Of a stretch of 40,000 bases of DNA, positions 22,970 through 26,601 are shown piece after piece. The stretch is from Nitrosopumilus sp. (GTDB lineage: Archaea; Thermoproteota; Nitrososphaeria; Nitrososphaerales; Nitrosopumilaceae), in NCBI RefSeq assembly GCF_965262695.1, contig NZ_OZ253550.1, positions 233,671-273,670 of the forward strand, read 5' to 3'. The position numbers and the translations under genes were made by a program. Numbering within the stretch: the stretch's first letter is position 1; each line of letters begins with the position of its first letter. The notes below the pieces were generated by a model. That model had not been told where the DNA came from and made no database searches. It worked only from the letters and a program-made list of their open reading frames with translations.

Positions 22970-23317
22970 TCAGTTATTTTTCTGCATAAAGAGATTCAAC
23001 ATTGTATGTCCCTTGTCTGTAATTGTGTATATCATGTTTGATCCAACTGCCTCTTTTTTAACAAAGTTGTAATCAACACATAGATGAAGATAGTTCAGAA
23101 ATGACTTTTTCATTCTGATCTTTGATTTTGAATACAATTCTGAAAATGTCATTGGATTTCCTCTTAATTGATACAATAATTTCAACAAAGACAAAGTACT
23201 GTAATCCCTGGTTCTTGCTTTTACTGCACCTAGGATTTCTTCATCCCTTTTGATTATGAAATCTTCGAATTGTTCTGCCACTTCTAGTGGTACATATGTT
23301 AGTCTTGCTCGCATCAT
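22970..23317 (-). CDS. putative winged-helix transcriptional regulator
   Basis: 115 aa. The segment LSLLKLLYQLRGNPMTFSELYSKSKIRMKKSFLNYLHLCVDYNFVKKE fits the helix-turn-helix plus wing pattern of ArsR/MarR-like wHTH proteins. Confidence 0.5.
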   Translation of the reverse strand: MMRARLTYVPLEVAEQFEDFIIKRDEEILGAVKARTRDYSTLSLLKLLYQLRGNPMTFSELYSKSKIRMKKSFLNYLHLCVDYNFVKKEAVGSNMIYTITDKGHTMLNLFMQKNN

Positions 23318-23333: not shown

Positions 23334-23504
23334 CATTACTTTATTAGTCTTTAACTTGAGCTTTGTTGATCTTTCTAGCTGATTTTTTTACACTTGTATT
23401 TGACGACTACCCATCAATTCATCACATATGATCTGAATACGATCTACTATTATCTGTGATAATGGCCTAATATCATAAATAGCCCATTTTTTTGAAAATT
23501 ATTT

Positions 23505-24086
23505 GTGAAAAAAATAGAGGCTGTAATTAGGAGAAAGAATTTTCCAACAATTAAATCTCATTTACATATTATTGGTAGTTACATTATAGATAAACGAAAT
23601 TTAGAAGATAGCAACATCTATGATGAGTCTAAAGGCTCACGTGTAGGTTCTACTGGTCTCAAATCAATCCCTCTTGCAAAAATCGAAATGGTAGTACCTG
23701 ACAAAGATGCAAGAAAGGTAGTTGAGATGATTTCCAAAAATTCTGGTTTGTCTGCAACTCATGGAGGAAAAATCTTTGTTTCTGAAATGGAAGAAGTTGT
23801 AGACATGGAAACAAATGATGCTACACAAGATCTTGAACTTGTTTTAGATGAAAAACCAGAACCAATAACATTACCAAAACGCAGTAGATTTGTCCCATTA
23901 CAAAAATTCACTTTACATAAACTCCAAGTAATTTATGAAGAAAATAAAGAAACTCTTAGAACTGATTACAGAATAAAATCATTTAGTGATTTTGTAAATC
24001 ATTGTATCATGAAATACCTTCCAACATTAGAAAAACAACTAAAGAATCCTACAATTGTTTATGAAAACAATTTTGGTGATTTTTAA
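23505..24086 (+). CDS. PII-like (GlnB-fold) domain protein with ~85-aa C-terminal extension (possible RHH)
   Basis: MKKIEAVIR..., KIEMVVPDKDARKVVEMI and GGKIFVSEMEEVVDM parallel PII strands b1, b3 and b4. The T-loop is extended. The C-terminal RSRFVPLQKFTLHKLQVIYEEN...IKSFSDFVNHCIMKYL has a strand-helix-helix pattern. GTG start. Confidence 0.65.
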   Translation: MKKIEAVIRRKNFPTIKSHLHIIGSYIIDKRNLEDSNIYDESKGSRVGSTGLKSIPLAKIEMVVPDKDARKVVEMISKNSGLSATHGGKIFVSEMEEVVDMETNDATQDLELVLDEKPEPITLPKRSRFVPLQKFTLHKLQVIYEENKETLRTDYRIKSFSDFVNHCIMKYLPTLEKQLKNPTIVYENNFGDF

Positions 24087-24181
24087 AAAATATAATCTGA
24101 AAACAACCATAATCCAACTAAAGTTAGGCCAACTGCGGCCATTATCACTTTTGCAATGGATATTTTCTTAGATGTTTTCAT
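24083..24181 (-). CDS. candidate 32-aa single-TM micro-protein (B)
   Basis: Hand translation: MKTSKKISIAKVIMAAVGLTLVGLWLFSDYIF. Its ATG overlaps the stop of micro-ORF A (ATGA). Confidence 0.35.
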   Translation of the reverse strand: MKTSKKISIAKVIMAAVGLTLVGLWLFSDYIF

Positions 24182-24306
24182 ATGAAGAATAATAATATCG
24201 GTGGTATAACAATTATTCCAATGATTACAGCTACCTTTGGGTAATCTTTAGGCTTGATTGGCTGCATTTTTTCTCTTTTGAATAATTTGCTTTTACGAAC
24301 ATTCAT
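24178..24306 (-). CDS. candidate 42-aa single-TM micro-protein (A)
   Basis: Hand translation: MNVRKSKLFKREKMQPIKPKDYPKVAVIIGIIVIPPILLFFI. It starts 11 nt after the PII gene stop. Confidence 0.35.
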   Translation of the reverse strand: MNVRKSKLFKREKMQPIKPKDYPKVAVIIGIIVIPPILLFFI

Positions 24307-24317
24307 CCAAAATCACA

Positions 24318-24647
24318 TTAGATTGTTGATTCGCCCTCTTCACCTGTTGCGATATCTACTGCACGCAATACCTGTGTGACAAAAATCTTACCTACTCTGC
24401 CTTTTTCTTTGATGATGTTTACCACTTCATCTTCTTTTGAATCAGGTATGATGGCTTCGATGAAATATTTGTCATTAAATTGAGGCACAAAAATCTCACT
24501 TCCTTTTGATGCGTGAATTTCAGGTCCTGGTCTCTTTCCTCTACCTCTTACCTTTGTAACTGTGAGACCGCCTATTCCGATATTCTTTAGTGCTTCACTT
24601 ATTGACATGACGTCATTTTCGCCAAGAATAGCTTCTATTTTGAGCAT
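24318..24647 (-). CDS. PII-family nitrogen regulatory protein
   Basis: 109 aa. MLKIEAIL..., GLTVTKVRGRGK (T-loop base), YFIEAIIPD and GKIFVTQVLRAVDIATGEEGE form the canonical PII layout. Divergent from amt. Confidence 0.8.
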   Translation of the reverse strand: MLKIEAILGENDVMSISEALKNIGIGGLTVTKVRGRGKRPGPEIHASKGSEIFVPQFNDKYFIEAIIPDSKEDEVVNIIKEKGRVGKIFVTQVLRAVDIATGEEGESTI

Positions 24648-24764
24648 TTGATAATTGTAATTTCAACTTGATAAATATAATTTCTGATTTTGTATACCAA
24701 ATGATTATCATTTGACAATCAAATTAGGATATTGTTATTAATTAAAAACTAATTTTTTTCTATA

Positions 24765-26072
24765 ATGGTACTTGATTCTGGAGATACAGCGTGGATGCTT
24801 GTAGCTGGAAGTCTTGTATTACTTATGATCCCTGCATTAGGTCTTTTTGAATCTGGTTTGTTACGAAAGAAAAATGCAGCTTCAATTTTCATGCAGATCT
24901 TTTTCGGATTGGCACTTTTGAGTGTGATGTGGTTTGTATTTGGATTTAGTTTATCGTTCAGTCCTTCAGAACATGGTTTAATCGGAGATATGGAATGGGT
25001 ATTCCTCAAGGGTGTACCTTCTGATGATTCATTACCCTTTGCTCCAACCATTCCTGGTGTACTGTTTGTAAAATTCCAATTGATGTTTGCATGTATTACT
25101 CCATTACTTCTTACAGGAACAATTGCTGAGAGAATGAAGTTTAGTTCCTTTATTGTATTCATATCTGCATGGTCTATGTTGATCTACTATCCTCTTGTCC
25201 ACTGGGTATGGGGTGGAGGTTGGCTATCTGAATTAGGTGTTGTAGACTTTGCTGGTGGTATTGTAATTCACACTAGTGTTGGTATGGCTGCTTTAGCTGC
25301 TGCATTGGTACTTGGAAAGAGAAGAAATTACGGTCCTGCCATAATGATTCCTCACAGTATCCCCCTTGCAGTTCTTGGTTCATCTTTGCTATGGCTTGGA
25401 TGGTTTGGCTTTAACGCAGGTAGTGCACTTGCAGCATCAGGTGGTGTTGCAGGTAACACCGTAATTGTAACTCATATGGCTTCTTCTGTTTCTGCTTTAA
25501 TTTGGGCAGGACTTTCATGGGTAAGAACAGGAAAACCATCTGTTGTTGCTACCATCAATGGTGCAATTGCAGGTCTTGCTGGAATTACTCCTGCATCAGG
25601 ATTTGTAAGTGCTGAACATGCATTTGTAATTGGAATTGCAATCGGTGTAATCTCTTATTCTGGTGTAGTACTATTCAAAGAAAAATTACACATTGATGAT
25701 GCACTTGATGTCAGCTCAGTCCACGGTGTTGCAGGTATTGTGGGTTCTCTTGCAATCGGTATATTTGCAAGTACTATGATTAACCCTGGCGGTGTTGATG
25801 GATTACTATTTGGTAATCCTGATCAATTATGGATTCAAGCAGTAGGTGTTGCAGTTGCAGCCGCAATTGGATTTGGTGGAACGTGGATTCTGATGCAGAT
25901 AATAAAACACTTGATGGGAATACGAGTCAGTGCTGAAGTTGAAGATGTTGGTCTTGACATAAGTGAGCATGCTGAATCTGCGTACTCTGACGAAGAAGAA
26001 TTCATGTTGGATATGGATACATATACTGATGAGTTACAAGAAAAAGACGAAATCTTTAGAAAGAGAAAATAG
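24765..26072 (+). CDS. amt: ammonium transporter (Amt/MEP/Rh family)
   Basis: DSGDTAWMLVAGSLVLLMIPALGLFESGLLR, DFAGGIVIHTSVGMAALAAALVLGKR, WFGFNAGSAL and VHGVAGIVGSLAIGIF. 11 TM helices. Acidic cytoplasmic C-terminal tail. Confidence 0.92.
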   Translation: MVLDSGDTAWMLVAGSLVLLMIPALGLFESGLLRKKNAASIFMQIFFGLALLSVMWFVFGFSLSFSPSEHGLIGDMEWVFLKGVPSDDSLPFAPTIPGVLFVKFQLMFACITPLLLTGTIAERMKFSSFIVFISAWSMLIYYPLVHWVWGGGWLSELGVVDFAGGIVIHTSVGMAALAAALVLGKRRNYGPAIMIPHSIPLAVLGSSLLWLGWFGFNAGSALAASGGVAGNTVIVTHMASSVSALIWAGLSWVRTGKPSVVATINGAIAGLAGITPASGFVSAEHAFVIGIAIGVISYSGVVLFKEKLHIDDALDVSSVHGVAGIVGSLAIGIFASTMINPGGVDGLLFGNPDQLWIQAVGVAVAAAIGFGGTWILMQIIKHLMGIRVSAEVEDVGLDISEHAESAYSDEEEFMLDMDTYTDELQEKDEIFRKRK

Positions 26073-26087
26073 GTTTGGTGTATTTTC

Positions 26088-26456
26088 TTGGGAATTAATT
26101 ATAATGACATCACAAAAAAAATCCTCGATTTAGATCCTCAAGTAAGATTTGCTGGTGTTGCAAACAATAAGGGTGAACTTGCTGCAGGAGGGCAGAAAGA
26201 TGATGTTGAGAAACTATTGGTTGGTGATGAAGTAAAAATGTCCATTCATTATGCTTTACAAAAACGAGATTTGTATACAAATTTGGCATACAAAATTGGT
26301 AATGAGACTTCTTCCATTACAGAATATGAAAAAGTCACAATGATAACTATCCCAATAAACTCTAGTGAGCTATTCTTAATCAGCACTGAACCCCGTGCAG
26401 ATTATTTGAAAATCATTGACACTGTTCGCTCTGAACTTGGTTTATCTGGTGATTAA
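26088..26456 (+). CDS. hypothetical protein (possibly Roadblock/LC7-like alpha/beta fold)
   Basis: 122-aa ORF starting (TTG) 15 nt after the amt stop. The alternating pattern VRFAGVANNKGELAAGG...KVTMITIPINSSELFLISTEP loosely recalls Roadblock/LC7. This cannot be verified here. Confidence 0.45.
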   Translation: MGINYNDITKKILDLDPQVRFAGVANNKGELAAGGQKDDVEKLLVGDEVKMSIHYALQKRDLYTNLAYKIGNETSSITEYEKVTMITIPINSSELFLISTEPRADYLKIIDTVRSELGLSGD

Positions 26457-26601
26457 TTTAGTACGAAGAATTACAGTCACCATGGATGATAAATTAGTAA
26501 AAAAAATCTATCTTCTTCAAGCCAAAGAAATCACAAAATCTCAAAAACACATTAGTTTCTCAAACATCATCAATTTGCAATTGAAACGTGCACTAAAATA
26601 G
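26449..26601 (+). CDS. putative ribbon-helix-helix (CopG/Arc-like) DNA-binding protein
   Basis: RRITVTMDDKLVKKIYLLQAKEI...ISFSNIINLQLKRAL gives a strand-helix-helix pattern. I favour the in-frame GTG at 26449, which overlaps the upstream stop as GTGATTAA. The track's TTG at 26416 is the longest option. Confidence 0.45.
   Translation: MINLVRRITVTMDDKLVKKIYLLQAKEITKSQKHISFSNIINLQLKRALK

What the first reader, a model, noticed from the sequence alone, without database searches (positions are those of the whole stretch)
23505..24086. PII-like sensor domain fused to a putative ribbon-helix-helix DNA-binding tail
The first ~105 aa follow the PII layout (MKKIEAVIR / KIEMVVPDKDARKVVEMI / GGKIFVSEMEEVVDM) with a longer, Ser/Gly-rich T-loop. 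Canonical PII ends there, but this protein continues for ~85 aa. The final ~55 aa (RSRFVPLQKFTLHKLQVIYEENKETL...IKSFSDFVNHCIMKYL) show the strand-helix-helix pattern of RHH/CopG proteins. Their second helix starts with the same SFS[DN]-hydrophobic motif as the separate RHH ORF at 26449 (ISFSNIINLQLKRAL). If correct, this would be a one-component regulator wiring the ATP/ADP/2-oxoglutarate-sensing fold directly to DNA binding. I am not aware of a characterised example.
Basis: inference. Interest (0 to 1): 0.7.

Follow-up and report, generated by a model that had tools for sequence, protein, structure and literature searches.

The report
PII sensor fused to DNA-binding-like tail
Ammonia-oxidizing archaea encode, always next to their ammonium transporter gene, a nitrogen-signalling PII-type protein permanently fused to a small basic domain that looks like a DNA-binding module, and a conserved repeated DNA motif in the transporter promoter is its likely target, which would make it the first candidate nitrogen transcription factor for these organisms.

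Summary
The ORF at 23505-24086 is real. Its first ~105 residues are a genuine but degenerate GlnK-type PII domain. The fusion to an ~85-residue tail is not an artefact: it is full length in more than 1,400 relatives from Nitrosopumilaceae to Nitrosocaldus, and the gene always sits beside an amt gene.

The tail core (residues 125-180) is more conserved than the PII domain. It is basic (pI 9.8) and joined by an acidic linker of very variable length. It also occurs as a free-standing 57-85 aa protein. Ribbon-helix-helix (RHH) identity is plausible but unproven. Pfam, PDB sequence and Foldseek searches found nothing. Only the free-standing relatives give a modest RHH profile signal (P~0.001; 0 of 120 shuffles).

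The T-loop is not longer than normal.

New here: a conserved array of 11-bp TGATWATCA units lies between the divergent amt and short-PII promoters. In other lineages it lies upstream of the fusion gene itself.

Best reading (~0.5): an undescribed one-component PII transcription regulator of ammonium uptake.

The parts
23505..24086 (+). Gene for the 193-aa PII-tail fusion protein (GTG start; the stop codon is included)
   Evidence: ORF list and sequence. Full-length relatives of 172-251 aa were found. Orthologues start at the same position.
23505..23819 (+). Degenerate GlnK-type PII domain (residues 1-105)
   Evidence: Pfam P-II scores 41.5 bits against a cut-off of 25. PDB GlnK1 7p4v matches at E 4.7e-8. 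The AF2 model has a beta-alpha-beta-beta-alpha-beta layout with a disordered T-loop. Foldseek finds GlnK/GlnB structures. The canonical ligand residues are mostly replaced.
23820..23876 (+). Acidic linker of hypervariable length (residues 106-124). It begins with a nearly invariant D-L-E
   Evidence: Linker length ranges from a few to about 60 residues across clades, and D109 and E111 are nearly invariant. pLDDT is below 50 for residues 108-119. The pI is 4.05.
23877..24044 (+). Conserved basic tail core (residues 125-180), proposed to be an RHH-like DNA-binding domain. It comprises the KRSRFVPL segment, helix A plus the short helix A', the YRIKS turn, and helix B starting at FSDF
   Evidence: - R128, L132, Q133, T136, Y144, L151, Y155, I157, S159, F163 and C167 are invariant in 72 sequences.
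- The helices are predicted with pLDDT 88-97.
- The pI is 9.78.
- It is homologous to free-standing 57-85 aa proteins.
- Those relatives give a modest RHH profile signal. Pfam RHH_5 is sub-threshold.
24045..24083 (+). Clade-specific C-terminal 13 residues (NPTIVYENNFGDF), of unknown role
   Evidence: Conserved within Nitrosopumilaceae and replaced by other sequences in other clades. pLDDT is about 40.
23474..23482 (+). TATA-box-like element (CATAAATAG) of the fusion gene, ending 23 nt before the start codon
   Evidence: Conserved in position in Nitrosopumilaceae orthologous loci. Assignment as a promoter element is inference.
23457..23465 (.). Single degenerate operator-like unit (TGATAATGG) just upstream of the fusion gene's TATA box
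   Evidence: It is conserved in position but degenerate among loci: L005 TGATAATCA, L008 TGATAATTA, L012 TGATTATCA. It is weak on its own. In a 55%-identity clade the same position carries 3-4 perfect tandem units (L110, L157).
24691..24721 (.). Operator-like array of three tandem 11-bp units with the palindromic core TGATWATCA (TGTATACCA aa TGATTATCA tt TGACAATCA), lying between the divergent promoters of the short PII gene and amt
   Evidence: - It is the best period-11 triple in the whole 40-kb window (23 of 27; the shuffle maximum is 21) and in every Nitrosopumilaceae locus (23-27 of 27).
- The central unit is invariant in 10 species.
- It is the only doublet scoring at least 16 of 18 in the window, against 0.02 expected.
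- In 18 metagenomic AOA loci it lies 42-54 bp upstream of both start codons.
24318..24647 (-). Short (109-aa) PII gene, convergent with the fusion gene and divergent from amt. It is a likely partner or co-regulated gene
   Evidence: Pfam P-II scores 60.2 bits. Synteny is conserved. It is itself non-canonical: the B-loop is shortened, R101 is D and R103 is A.
24765..26072 (+). Ammonium transporter (Amt) gene, the proposed regulated target
   Evidence: Pfam Ammonium_transp, E 4e-114. It is adjacent to the fusion gene in all four lineages examined.

Best explanation
Proposed function: the gene encodes a lineage-specific, one-component nitrogen regulator of ammonia-oxidizing archaea.

Shown:
- A degenerate GlnK-like PII domain is joined by a flexible acidic linker of variable length to an autonomous, highly conserved, basic ~55-residue domain.
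- The gene is fixed next to amt from Nitrosopumilus to Nitrosocaldus.
- The promoters of amt, of the co-encoded short PII gene and, in some lineages, of the fusion gene itself carry conserved tandem arrays of an 11-bp unit with the palindromic core TGATWATCA.

Inferred:
- The tail is a ribbon-helix-helix-like domain that dimerises between PII trimers. This would give an oligomer with several DNA-binding heads.
- These heads bind cooperatively to successive units one helical turn apart, as Arc, Mnt, MetJ and omega do on their operators.
- The array sits just upstream of two divergent TATA/BRE regions. Binding there would switch transcription of amt and the short PII gene, and autoregulate the fusion gene.
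- The PII domain sets DNA affinity according to nitrogen or energy status.
- Because the canonical ATP/2-oxoglutarate site is not conserved, the signal is either a different ligand or contact with the co-encoded short PII or with Amt.
For: PII domain:
- Supported by Pfam, PDB sequence search and fold search.

Fusion conserved and ancient:
- 1,456 and 884 relatives were found. All of the best ones are full length (172-251 aa).
- They include Nitrosopumilus, Nitrosarchaeum and Nitrosocaldus.

Tail:
- The tail is more conserved than the PII domain. Its invariant residues cluster in the KRSR-VPLQK segment and the YRIKSFSDF turn, which are the two DNA-contacting elements of an RHH (the mapping is inference).
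- The tail core has pI 9.8 and the linker pI 4.05.
- The tail is an autonomous domain: hhalign against free-standing 57-85 aa thaumarchaeal proteins gives probability 99.1%, E 5e-19.
- Those free-standing relatives score 17.6 against a validated 12-family RHH profile (P 0.001). None of 120 column-shuffled nulls reach this (null 7.5 +/- 1.4). The expected register is obtained with a 9-residue insertion.
- Controls score lower: HTH P 0.087 and homeodomain P 0.59.
- Pfam RHH_5 gives E 0.04-0.13 on helix B of the native free-standing relatives P0244 and P0245.

Genomic linkage:
- The gene is linked to amt in four lineages.

Operator:
- The array is the top-scoring site in every locus and exceeds all shuffles. 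Its central unit is invariant in 10 species.
- All 21 AOA loci among 120 metagenome matches have it at a fixed distance from amt plus the short PII gene (18 loci), from the fusion gene itself (2) or from a second Amt type (1).
- The free-standing relatives have their own repeats upstream of their TATA boxes. P0244 has GCGGTA units at 11-bp spacing and P0136 has GTTAAC twice, 21 bp apart.
- No other DNA-binding candidate is conserved in these neighbourhoods. The winged-helix ORF at 22970-23317 is present in only some loci.
Against: - No library search identifies the tail as RHH. Pfam finds nothing. PDB profile searches find nothing. Foldseek gives 0 hits against the PDB and nothing significant against the viral set.
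- The profile of fused tails alone against RHH gives P 0.13, no better than the HTH controls.
- The AF2 model shows no strand and has an extra short helix, so a three-helix fold is not excluded.
- In the RHH register, the ribbon residues that would face DNA are S127, F/L129 and P131. These are unusual for base contacts.
- Nothing links the protein to the motif experimentally, and another factor encoded elsewhere could bind it.
- Single TGATWATCA sites are not enriched in the window (27 found against 28.9 expected).
- The number of units varies from 1 to 6, so it does not mirror a fixed stoichiometry.
- The canonical PII effector site is lost, so what the domain senses is unknown.
Confidence: 0.5

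Rival explanations
1. The protein is a PII-type signal transducer that, like all characterised PII proteins, acts through protein-protein contacts. On this reading the conserved tail is an oligomerisation or docking module, for example for Amt, the short PII or another target. The TGATWATCA array is then bound by an unrelated transcription factor encoded elsewhere.
For: - No library search recognises the tail as a DNA-binding fold.
- The fused-only profile shows no RHH signal.
- The putative ribbon carries L/F and P at the positions that would face DNA.
- Adjacency to amt is equally expected for a GlnK-like Amt regulator.
Against: - The tail exists as a free-standing 57-aa protein in loci without amt or PII. 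This argues against a dedicated Amt or PII docking role.
- The tail is basic (pI 9.8), with conserved K/R clusters.
- Its free-standing relatives resemble RHH proteins and have repeats in their own promoters.
- The operator also occurs upstream of the fusion gene itself, which is typical of autoregulated DNA-binding proteins.
Confidence: 0.3
2. The tail does bind DNA, but it is not a ribbon-helix-helix. It is instead a small three-helix domain (helix, short helix, turn, long helix), used like a helix-turn-helix with the KRSR segment as a basic arm. The regulatory logic would be otherwise the same.
For: AF2 predicts three helices (131-146, 148-154, 160-180) separated by short turns, and no strand. 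The 9-residue insertion needed to fit RHH is unusual.
Against: - HTH and homeodomain control profiles score at background.
- The free-standing relatives have the classic RHH start (KTVTL followed by a helix) and match RHH in register.
- RHH strands normally form only in the dimer, so their absence from a monomer model is expected (established knowledge of the fold).
- Foldseek found no HTH matches either.
Confidence: 0.12
3. The fusion is an artefact, meaning a frameshift, a read-through or an assembly join of a PII gene and a small downstream gene.
For: One orthologous locus (L007) has a frameshift within the PII part. Several short fragments appear among metagenome proteins.
Against: - Hundreds of independent full-length copies are present in isolates, MAGs and metagenomes, at 35-96% identity and with the same architecture.
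- The L007 frameshift is at residue ~25, not at the domain boundary.
- The fragments come from contig ends.
Confidence: 0.01

Closest known systems
GlnK/GlnB PII signal proteins, the closest being the archaeal GlnK proteins of Methanothermococcus/Methanocaldococcus and Archaeoglobus fulgidus
   Same: They share the fold and the family signature. They are also encoded next to an ammonium transporter gene, the classic glnK-amtB linkage.
   Different: - The positions of R38, Q39, K58, R101 and R103 and of the glycines at the base of the T-loop are replaced.
- There is no Tyr at the position of the modified T-loop residue.
- The protein carries an extra linker and a conserved basic domain.
- Known PII proteins regulate only by binding other proteins.
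NikR (nickel-responsive repressor)
   Same: It is a one-component regulator that joins an RHH DNA-binding domain to a ferredoxin-like (ACT-type) ligand-binding oligomerisation domain. The oligomer carries several RHH dimers (established knowledge).
   Different: The domain order is reversed, with the RHH at the N-terminus. Its sensor is a tetrameric ACT-like domain, not a trimeric PII. No sequence relationship was found here. NikR's N-terminus was part of the RHH reference profile.
PII-controlled transcription factors acting in trans: PipX-NtcA (cyanobacteria), GlnK-AmtR (Corynebacterium) and GlnK-TnrA (Bacillus), together with the 2-oxoglutarate-sensing NrpR of methanogens
   Same: They link nitrogen status, as read by PII or 2-oxoglutarate, to transcription of amt and assimilation genes (established knowledge; papers listed).
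   Different: In those systems PII and the DNA-binding protein are separate polypeptides that associate reversibly. Here they would be one chain. The operator sequence (TGATWATCA tandem units) differs from the NtcA, AmtR, TnrA and NrpR sites.
Arc, Mnt, MetJ, CopG and omega RHH repressors
   Same: They are small domains with a basic strand, helix A, a turn with Ser at the start of helix B, and helix B. Dimers bind cooperatively to adjacent sub-sites about one helical turn apart, and they autoregulate (established knowledge; register).
   Different: The tail has a 9-residue insertion that forms an extra short helix. The profile match is only sub-threshold. The ribbon residues are atypical, and the domain is C-terminal to a sensor domain.
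ArgR (arginine repressor)
   Same: It provides a working analogy. A trimeric alpha/beta effector domain pairs into hexamers, and flexibly linked DNA-binding domains occupy tandem operator boxes (established knowledge).
   Different: The folds are unrelated: ArgR has a winged-helix DNA-binding domain at the N-terminus. The comparison is analogy only.

Membership tests
PII (GlnB/GlnK) family, Pfam PF00543 | Sequence match to the family model above the curated threshold | tested here: met
   41.5 bits against a cut-off of 25, E 1.8e-10. NCBIfam equivalog models score far below their cut-offs (22.8 against 181), so it is not an orthologue of GlnB or GlnK.
PII (GlnB/GlnK) family, Pfam PF00543 | Double beta-alpha-beta ferredoxin-like fold with a T-loop | tested here: met
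   The AF2 model has strands E2-9, E27-33, E57-64 and E90-94, helices H10-23 and H66-79, and a disordered loop at 44-51. Foldseek against the PDB finds GlnK/GlnB structures: top E 1.1e-7, target-normalised TM-score 0.6-0.73.
PII (GlnB/GlnK) family, Pfam PF00543 | Conserved ATP/ADP and 2-oxoglutarate binding residues: G27, T29, G35, G37, R38, Q39, K58, the B-loop GDGK, R101 and R103 | tested here: not met
   The alignment with GlnK1, GlnK2 and GlnB shows I, D, D, N, -, -, L at the first seven positions, D at R101 and E at R103. Only GGK-IF of the B-loop is kept. The acid at the R101 position is conserved across the family.
PII (GlnB/GlnK) family, Pfam PF00543 | Modifiable T-loop residue (Tyr51 or Ser49) | tested here: not met
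   No Tyr aligns with Y51, and the loop sequence differs between clades. Many archaeal PII proteins also lack this modification, so this feature carries little weight.
PII (GlnB/GlnK) family, Pfam PF00543 | Homotrimer | not testable with these tools
   Only monomer prediction was available.
PII (GlnB/GlnK) family, Pfam PF00543 | Genetic linkage to amt | tested here: met
   The gene is adjacent to amt in the window, in L001-L012 and in L081-L086.
Ribbon-helix-helix (Arc/MetJ/CopG) superfamily | Significant sequence or profile match to an RHH family | tested here: inconclusive
   - Pfam gives no hit for the tail. RHH_5 gives E 0.04-0.13 for the free-standing relatives P0244 and P0245.
- After I deleted the insertion by hand, RHH_5 covered the whole model at E 0.007-0.05. 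This is an edited sequence and is only suggestive.
- hhalign against a validated 12-family RHH profile gives P 0.001 for the free-standing relatives (0 of 120 shuffles), P 0.028 for all members, and P 0.13 for fused tails only.
Ribbon-helix-helix (Arc/MetJ/CopG) superfamily | An N-terminal strand followed by two helices, with a polar N-cap turn before helix B | tested here: inconclusive
   AF2 gives an unstructured 125-130, helix 131-146, an extra helix 148-154, the turn YRIKS, and helix 160-180. The motif K-S-F-S-D-F lines up with R-S-V-N-S-E of Arc. A strand is not expected to form in a monomer model.
Ribbon-helix-helix (Arc/MetJ/CopG) superfamily | Structural similarity to solved RHH proteins | tested here: not met
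Ribbon-helix-helix (Arc/MetJ/CopG) superfamily | Dimer formed through an intersubunit ribbon, with DNA binding through the ribbon | not testable with these tools
   No multimer prediction or experiment was possible. A candidate operator was found.
NikR-type one-component regulators (RHH plus ferredoxin-like sensor) | An N-terminal RHH followed by a C-terminal ACT-like metal-binding tetramerisation domain (Pfam NikR_C) | tested here: not met
   The domain order is reversed, the sensor domain is P-II rather than NikR_C, and there is no NikR_C hit. NikR serves as an analogy only.

The most novel reading that the evidence does not exclude
This would be the first PII protein that is itself a transcription factor. 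It would be a master nitrogen regulator of ammonia-oxidizing archaea, binding tandem TGATWATCA operators at amt, PII and its own promoter. It would read cellular status through a remodelled PII pocket that binds something other than ATP/2-oxoglutarate, or through mixed oligomers with the co-encoded short PII.
Probability: 0.4. Interest if true: 0.85.

Novelty: new variant of a known kind. Interest (0 to 1): 0.68.

Why it matters
[quoted passage not shown] They use ammonia both as fuel and as nitrogen source.

[quoted passage not shown] I found no named regulator in the library searches.

This finding gives a concrete, testable pair: a conserved candidate regulator and a conserved candidate operator at the ammonium transporter promoter.

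For PII biology, a PII domain covalently tied to a DNA-binding module would be a new way of wiring this very widespread signalling fold. It would also be a case in which the classical effector pocket has been rebuilt.

Tried and rejected
Tail searches that found nothing:
- Pfam and NCBIfam on the tail gave no hit.
- Pfam on all 30 tail-family members gave only scattered sub-threshold hits.
- PDB sequence searches with tail profiles and with an edited sequence found nothing meaningful.
- Foldseek with the tail model found nothing in the PDB or the viral set.

Link to the neighbouring RHH-like ORF:
- The proposed link to the ORF at 26416-26601 gave only P 0.03-0.045, so I rejected it as evidence.

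Motif counts:
- The count of single TGATWATCA sites in the window is not enriched. Only the tandem arrangement carries information.

Three units matching a PII trimer:
- I rejected the idea that three operator units mirror the PII trimer as a strict rule, because unit number varies from 1 to 6.

Non-AOA metagenome matches:
- 99 of 120 metagenome matches are unrelated to AOA.
- These include a eukaryote-like microsatellite in L103.

Other:
- The cluster look-up to name the taxa of the divergent clades returned no names.
- Two cited papers (PMC5150414, PMC3811556) are not held in the library.
- The artefact hypothesis (frameshift or assembly join) was rejected.
Full report
**Observation**

Residues 1-105 are a PII domain by three independent tests:
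- Pfam P-II scores 41.5 bits against a gathering cut-off of 25.
- phmmer against solved structures gives archaeal GlnK proteins as best matches (7p4v, E 4.7e-8, query residues 1-108).
- The AlphaFold2 model (mean pLDDT 76.8, blocks of the PII core above 90) has the beta-alpha-beta-beta-alpha-beta order. It finds 178 GlnK/GlnB chains at E<=0.001 with Foldseek.

NCBIfam's GlnB and GlnK equivalog models score far below their cut-offs. The protein is therefore a divergent family member, not an orthologue of either. The T-loop is rich in Ser and Gly. However, it aligns with small gaps against canonical PII, so it is not longer.

**Is the fusion real?**

Yes.
- A search of 5.8 billion proteins gave 1,456 relatives. 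The best 120 are all 192-197 aa and cover 100% of the query.
- In species-representative genomes, the full-length match occurs in 14 Nitrosopumilaceae loci at 54-93% identity. The closest is Marine Group I thaumarchaeote SCGC AAA799-D11.
- A profile of divergent members found 884 proteins of 172-251 aa with the same two-part layout. These include Nitrosarchaeum, Nitrosocaldus and unnamed clades.
- In the 72-sequence alignment the linker varies from a few to about 60 residues, while the tail is the best conserved part. R128, L132, Q133, T136, Y144, L151, Y155, I157, S159, F163 and C167 are invariant. K125, R126, S127, V130, P131, K134, R156, F160, S161, D162 and N165 are nearly so.
- The only interrupted copy (L007) has a frameshift at residue ~25, not at the domain junction.

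**The PII domain is degenerate at its classical ligand site**

The family has:
- I and D at the positions of G27 and T29;
- no G35-x-G37-R38-Q39 segment;
- L at K58;
- a conserved acid at R101, and E/D/N at R103.

Only the GGK-IF part of the B-loop remains. From established knowledge of PII structures, these residues hold the nucleotide phosphates and the Mg-2-oxoglutarate. Canonical ATP/ADP/2-oxoglutarate sensing is therefore unlikely, and the effector is unknown.

**The tail: what was found**

An exhaustive phmmer search of 1.84 billion cluster representatives with the tail alone found only 17 clusters. These are PII-tail fusions, fragments, two spurious repeat proteins, and two free-standing small proteins. 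A follow-up search found five free-standing proteins of 57-85 aa, one of them named as coming from a Thaumarchaeota MAG. They lie in loci without amt or PII.

Fused tails and free-standing proteins are clearly homologous: hhalign probability 99.1%, E 5e-19, 51 ungapped columns. The tail is therefore an autonomous domain. It is basic (pI 9.78) and sits behind an acidic linker (pI 4.05).

AlphaFold2 gives confident helices at 131-146, 148-154 and 160-180 (pLDDT 88-97), preceded by an unstructured KRSRFV segment.

**The tail: is it RHH?**

The negative results are:
- no Pfam match;
- no PDB sequence match with three different queries;
- no Foldseek match in the PDB and nothing significant among viral models;

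I checked that its profile retrieves exactly these proteins and further RHH entries from the PDB. The hhalign results were:
- The free-standing relatives score 17.6 (P 0.001). None of 120 column-shuffled profiles reaches this (null 7.5 +/- 1.4, maximum 11.8). The tool's own hhalign gives P 0.003.
- The extended alignment has the expected register. SRFVPL lies on Arc QFNLRW and KSFSDFVNHCIMKYL on RSVNSEIYQRVMESF, with a 9-residue insertion after helix A.
- Control profiles score at background for these relatives: HTH P 0.087 and homeodomain P 0.59.
- The fused tails alone give only P 0.13, no better than their controls.

Pfam RHH_5 appears at E 0.04-0.13 for the native free-standing relatives P0244 and P0245. 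After I removed the insertion by hand, it appears over the whole model at E 0.007-0.05. That is a manipulated sequence and only suggestive.

In the RHH register, the residues that would face DNA in the fused form are S127, F/L129 and P131, which is unusual. My reading is that an RHH-like fold is the most likely one (about 0.55) but is not demonstrated. The proposed kinship with the ORF at 26416-26601 is not significant.

**Genomic context**

The gene lies beside an ammonium transporter gene in every lineage examined.
- In the window and ten Nitrosopumilaceae species, the order is fusion gene (+), a small membrane ORF and a 109-aa PII (-), then amt (+).
- In one species (L012) the fusion gene follows amt and a DUF6659 gene.
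- In Nitrosocaldus it lies between amt and a short PII gene.
- In a related clade it lies next to amt without a second PII gene.
- In a fourth clade it lies next to a short PII gene and two amt genes.

Published work notes PII genes near the low-affinity Amt genes of group 1.1a AOA (PMC4836417). It also notes large, variable PII repertoires in AOA (PMC7490402), but says nothing about this architecture.

**A conserved operator-like array (new)**

The 117-bp region between the divergent short PII gene and amt contains three tandem 11-bp units whose core, TGATWATCA, is itself a palindrome. In the window they lie at 24691-24721. In L001 all three units are perfect.

- Scoring three units at period 11, this site is the best in the whole 40-kb window (23 of 27 against a shuffle maximum of 21). 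It is also the best in every Nitrosopumilaceae locus (23-27 of 27).
- It is the only doublet scoring at least 16 of 18 in the window, against 0.02 expected.
- In an alignment of ten species, the invariant columns concentrate in the array and the central unit is invariant.
- The array sits midway between two TATA-like elements (about 24673-24683 for the short PII gene and 24735-24748 for amt). This places it upstream of both, where archaeal activators usually bind (inference).
- The same motif, often as two units 11 bp apart, occurs in the amt and fusion-gene promoters of Nitrosocaldus and the two other clades. Some copies lie downstream of a TATA box.
- All 21 AOA loci have the array at a fixed place:
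  - 42-54 bp upstream of both the amt and short PII start codons (18 loci);
  - 59-71 bp upstream of the fusion gene itself in a 55%-identity clade, with 3-4 perfect units (2 loci);
  - flanking the TATA box of a second Amt type (1 locus).
- A degenerate single unit lies in the same position upstream of the window's own fusion gene, at 23457-23465.
- Unit number varies from 1 to 6 between species.
- Single sites are not enriched in the window.
- The free-standing relatives of the tail have different ribbon residues. They carry their own repeats just upstream of their TATA boxes: GCGGTA units at 11-bp spacing for P0244, and GTTAAC twice, 21 bp apart, for P0136.

**Mechanism proposed**

Shown: the architecture, its conservation, the linkage to amt, and the conserved array.

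Inferred:
- PII domains trimerise and tails dimerise, giving an oligomer with several flexibly tethered DNA-binding heads.
- These heads bind cooperatively to successive units on one face of the DNA. Arc, Mnt, MetJ and omega do this on tandem sub-sites, and ArgR does it with a trimer-based core.
- Binding controls amt, the short PII gene and the regulator's own gene.
- The PII domain modulates binding through a non-canonical ligand or through contact with the short PII or Amt.

I put this at about 0.5. The main rival (0.3) is a conventional protein-binding PII whose tail is a docking or oligomerisation module, with another factor on the array. A non-RHH DNA-binding fold (0.12) would leave the regulatory logic unchanged.

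**Comparison and novelty**

The N-terminal half is a member of the PII family by sequence and fold but fails the effector-site test. Membership of the tail in the RHH superfamily is inconclusive.

Functionally the closest analogue is NikR, which joins an RHH to a ferredoxin-like sensor but in the opposite order. The trans-acting PII-transcription factor pairs PipX-NtcA, GlnK-AmtR and GlnK-TnrA are also close analogues.

Eight literature searches and the AOA reviews I read gave no description of a PII protein with a DNA-binding domain. Databases name these proteins simply 'P-II family nitrogen regulator' or 'transcriptional regulator'.

I rate it a new variant of known kinds. It has high practical interest because it offers the first specific candidate regulator-operator pair for ammonium uptake in ammonia-oxidizing archaea.

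Noticed in passing
window 24691-24721; L001 6177-6207; L110 5376-5417; L197 2726-2789: Tandem 11-bp units with the palindromic core TGATWATCA lie between the divergent short-PII and amt promoters. They are conserved from Nitrosopumilus to Nitrosocaldus. Unit number varies from 1 to 6 between species, and in one clade the array lies upstream of the fusion gene itself.
   Followed up: yes
window 24318-24647 (-): The neighbouring 109-aa PII is also non-canonical. Its B-loop is shortened by about five residues, R101 is replaced by D and R103 by A, while the T-loop base (GRGKR) and K58 are kept.
   Followed up: partly
window 24178-24306 (-): A 42-codon ORF directly downstream of the short PII gene encodes a basic N-terminus followed by a hydrophobic C-terminal segment. 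It is conserved in most Nitrosopumilus loci (tblastn E 1e-7 to 1e-16). It may be a small membrane protein co-transcribed with the PII gene.
   Followed up: partly
window 22970-23317 (-): A 115-aa ORF has weak winged-helix-like Pfam hits (DUF4364, DUF7347, HTH_45; all below threshold). It is 100% identical in L014 and 99% identical in L002, but it is present upstream of the fusion gene in only some species. It is therefore not a conserved partner.
   Followed up: partly
window 26416-26601 (+), overlapping the end of the DUF6659 gene (26088-26456): A small ORF has a weak RHH_1 hit (E 0.12; RRITVTM followed by helices). Homologues occur in L007, L014 and some metagenome loci. Its true start is probably internal. 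It has no significant relation to the tail family.
   Followed up: partly
L087 4918-4972 (also L088, L089); L210 140-170: The free-standing relatives of the tail have repeats just upstream of their own TATA boxes. P0244 has four GCGGTA-containing units spaced 18, 11 and 11 bp apart. P0136 has two GTTAAC palindromes 21 bp apart.
   Followed up: partly
L007 5001-5577: The orthologue in Nitrosopumilus sp. isolate PfA is interrupted by a frameshift at about codon 25. This is either a sequencing error or a pseudogene.
   Followed up: no
P0121, P0134, P0135: P0121 joins a NusB-like N-terminus to the tail and is probably a chimeric assembly or gene call. P0134 and P0135 are long tandem-repeat proteins that match the tail only through low-complexity stretches.
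   Followed up: no
L103 6710-6785; L119 39-91: Contigs from one sample carry ATGATTATCAT repeated about seven times in DNA without long ORFs (GC 0.42-0.45). This is an unrelated microsatellite that matches the operator pattern by chance.
   Followed up: yes
L081/L083 5716-5931 (+): In Nitrosocaldus and a related clade, a 69-73-aa ORF with a signal-peptide-like start and a hydrophobic segment lies between amt and the fusion gene. The operator-like motif is upstream of it.
   Followed up: no
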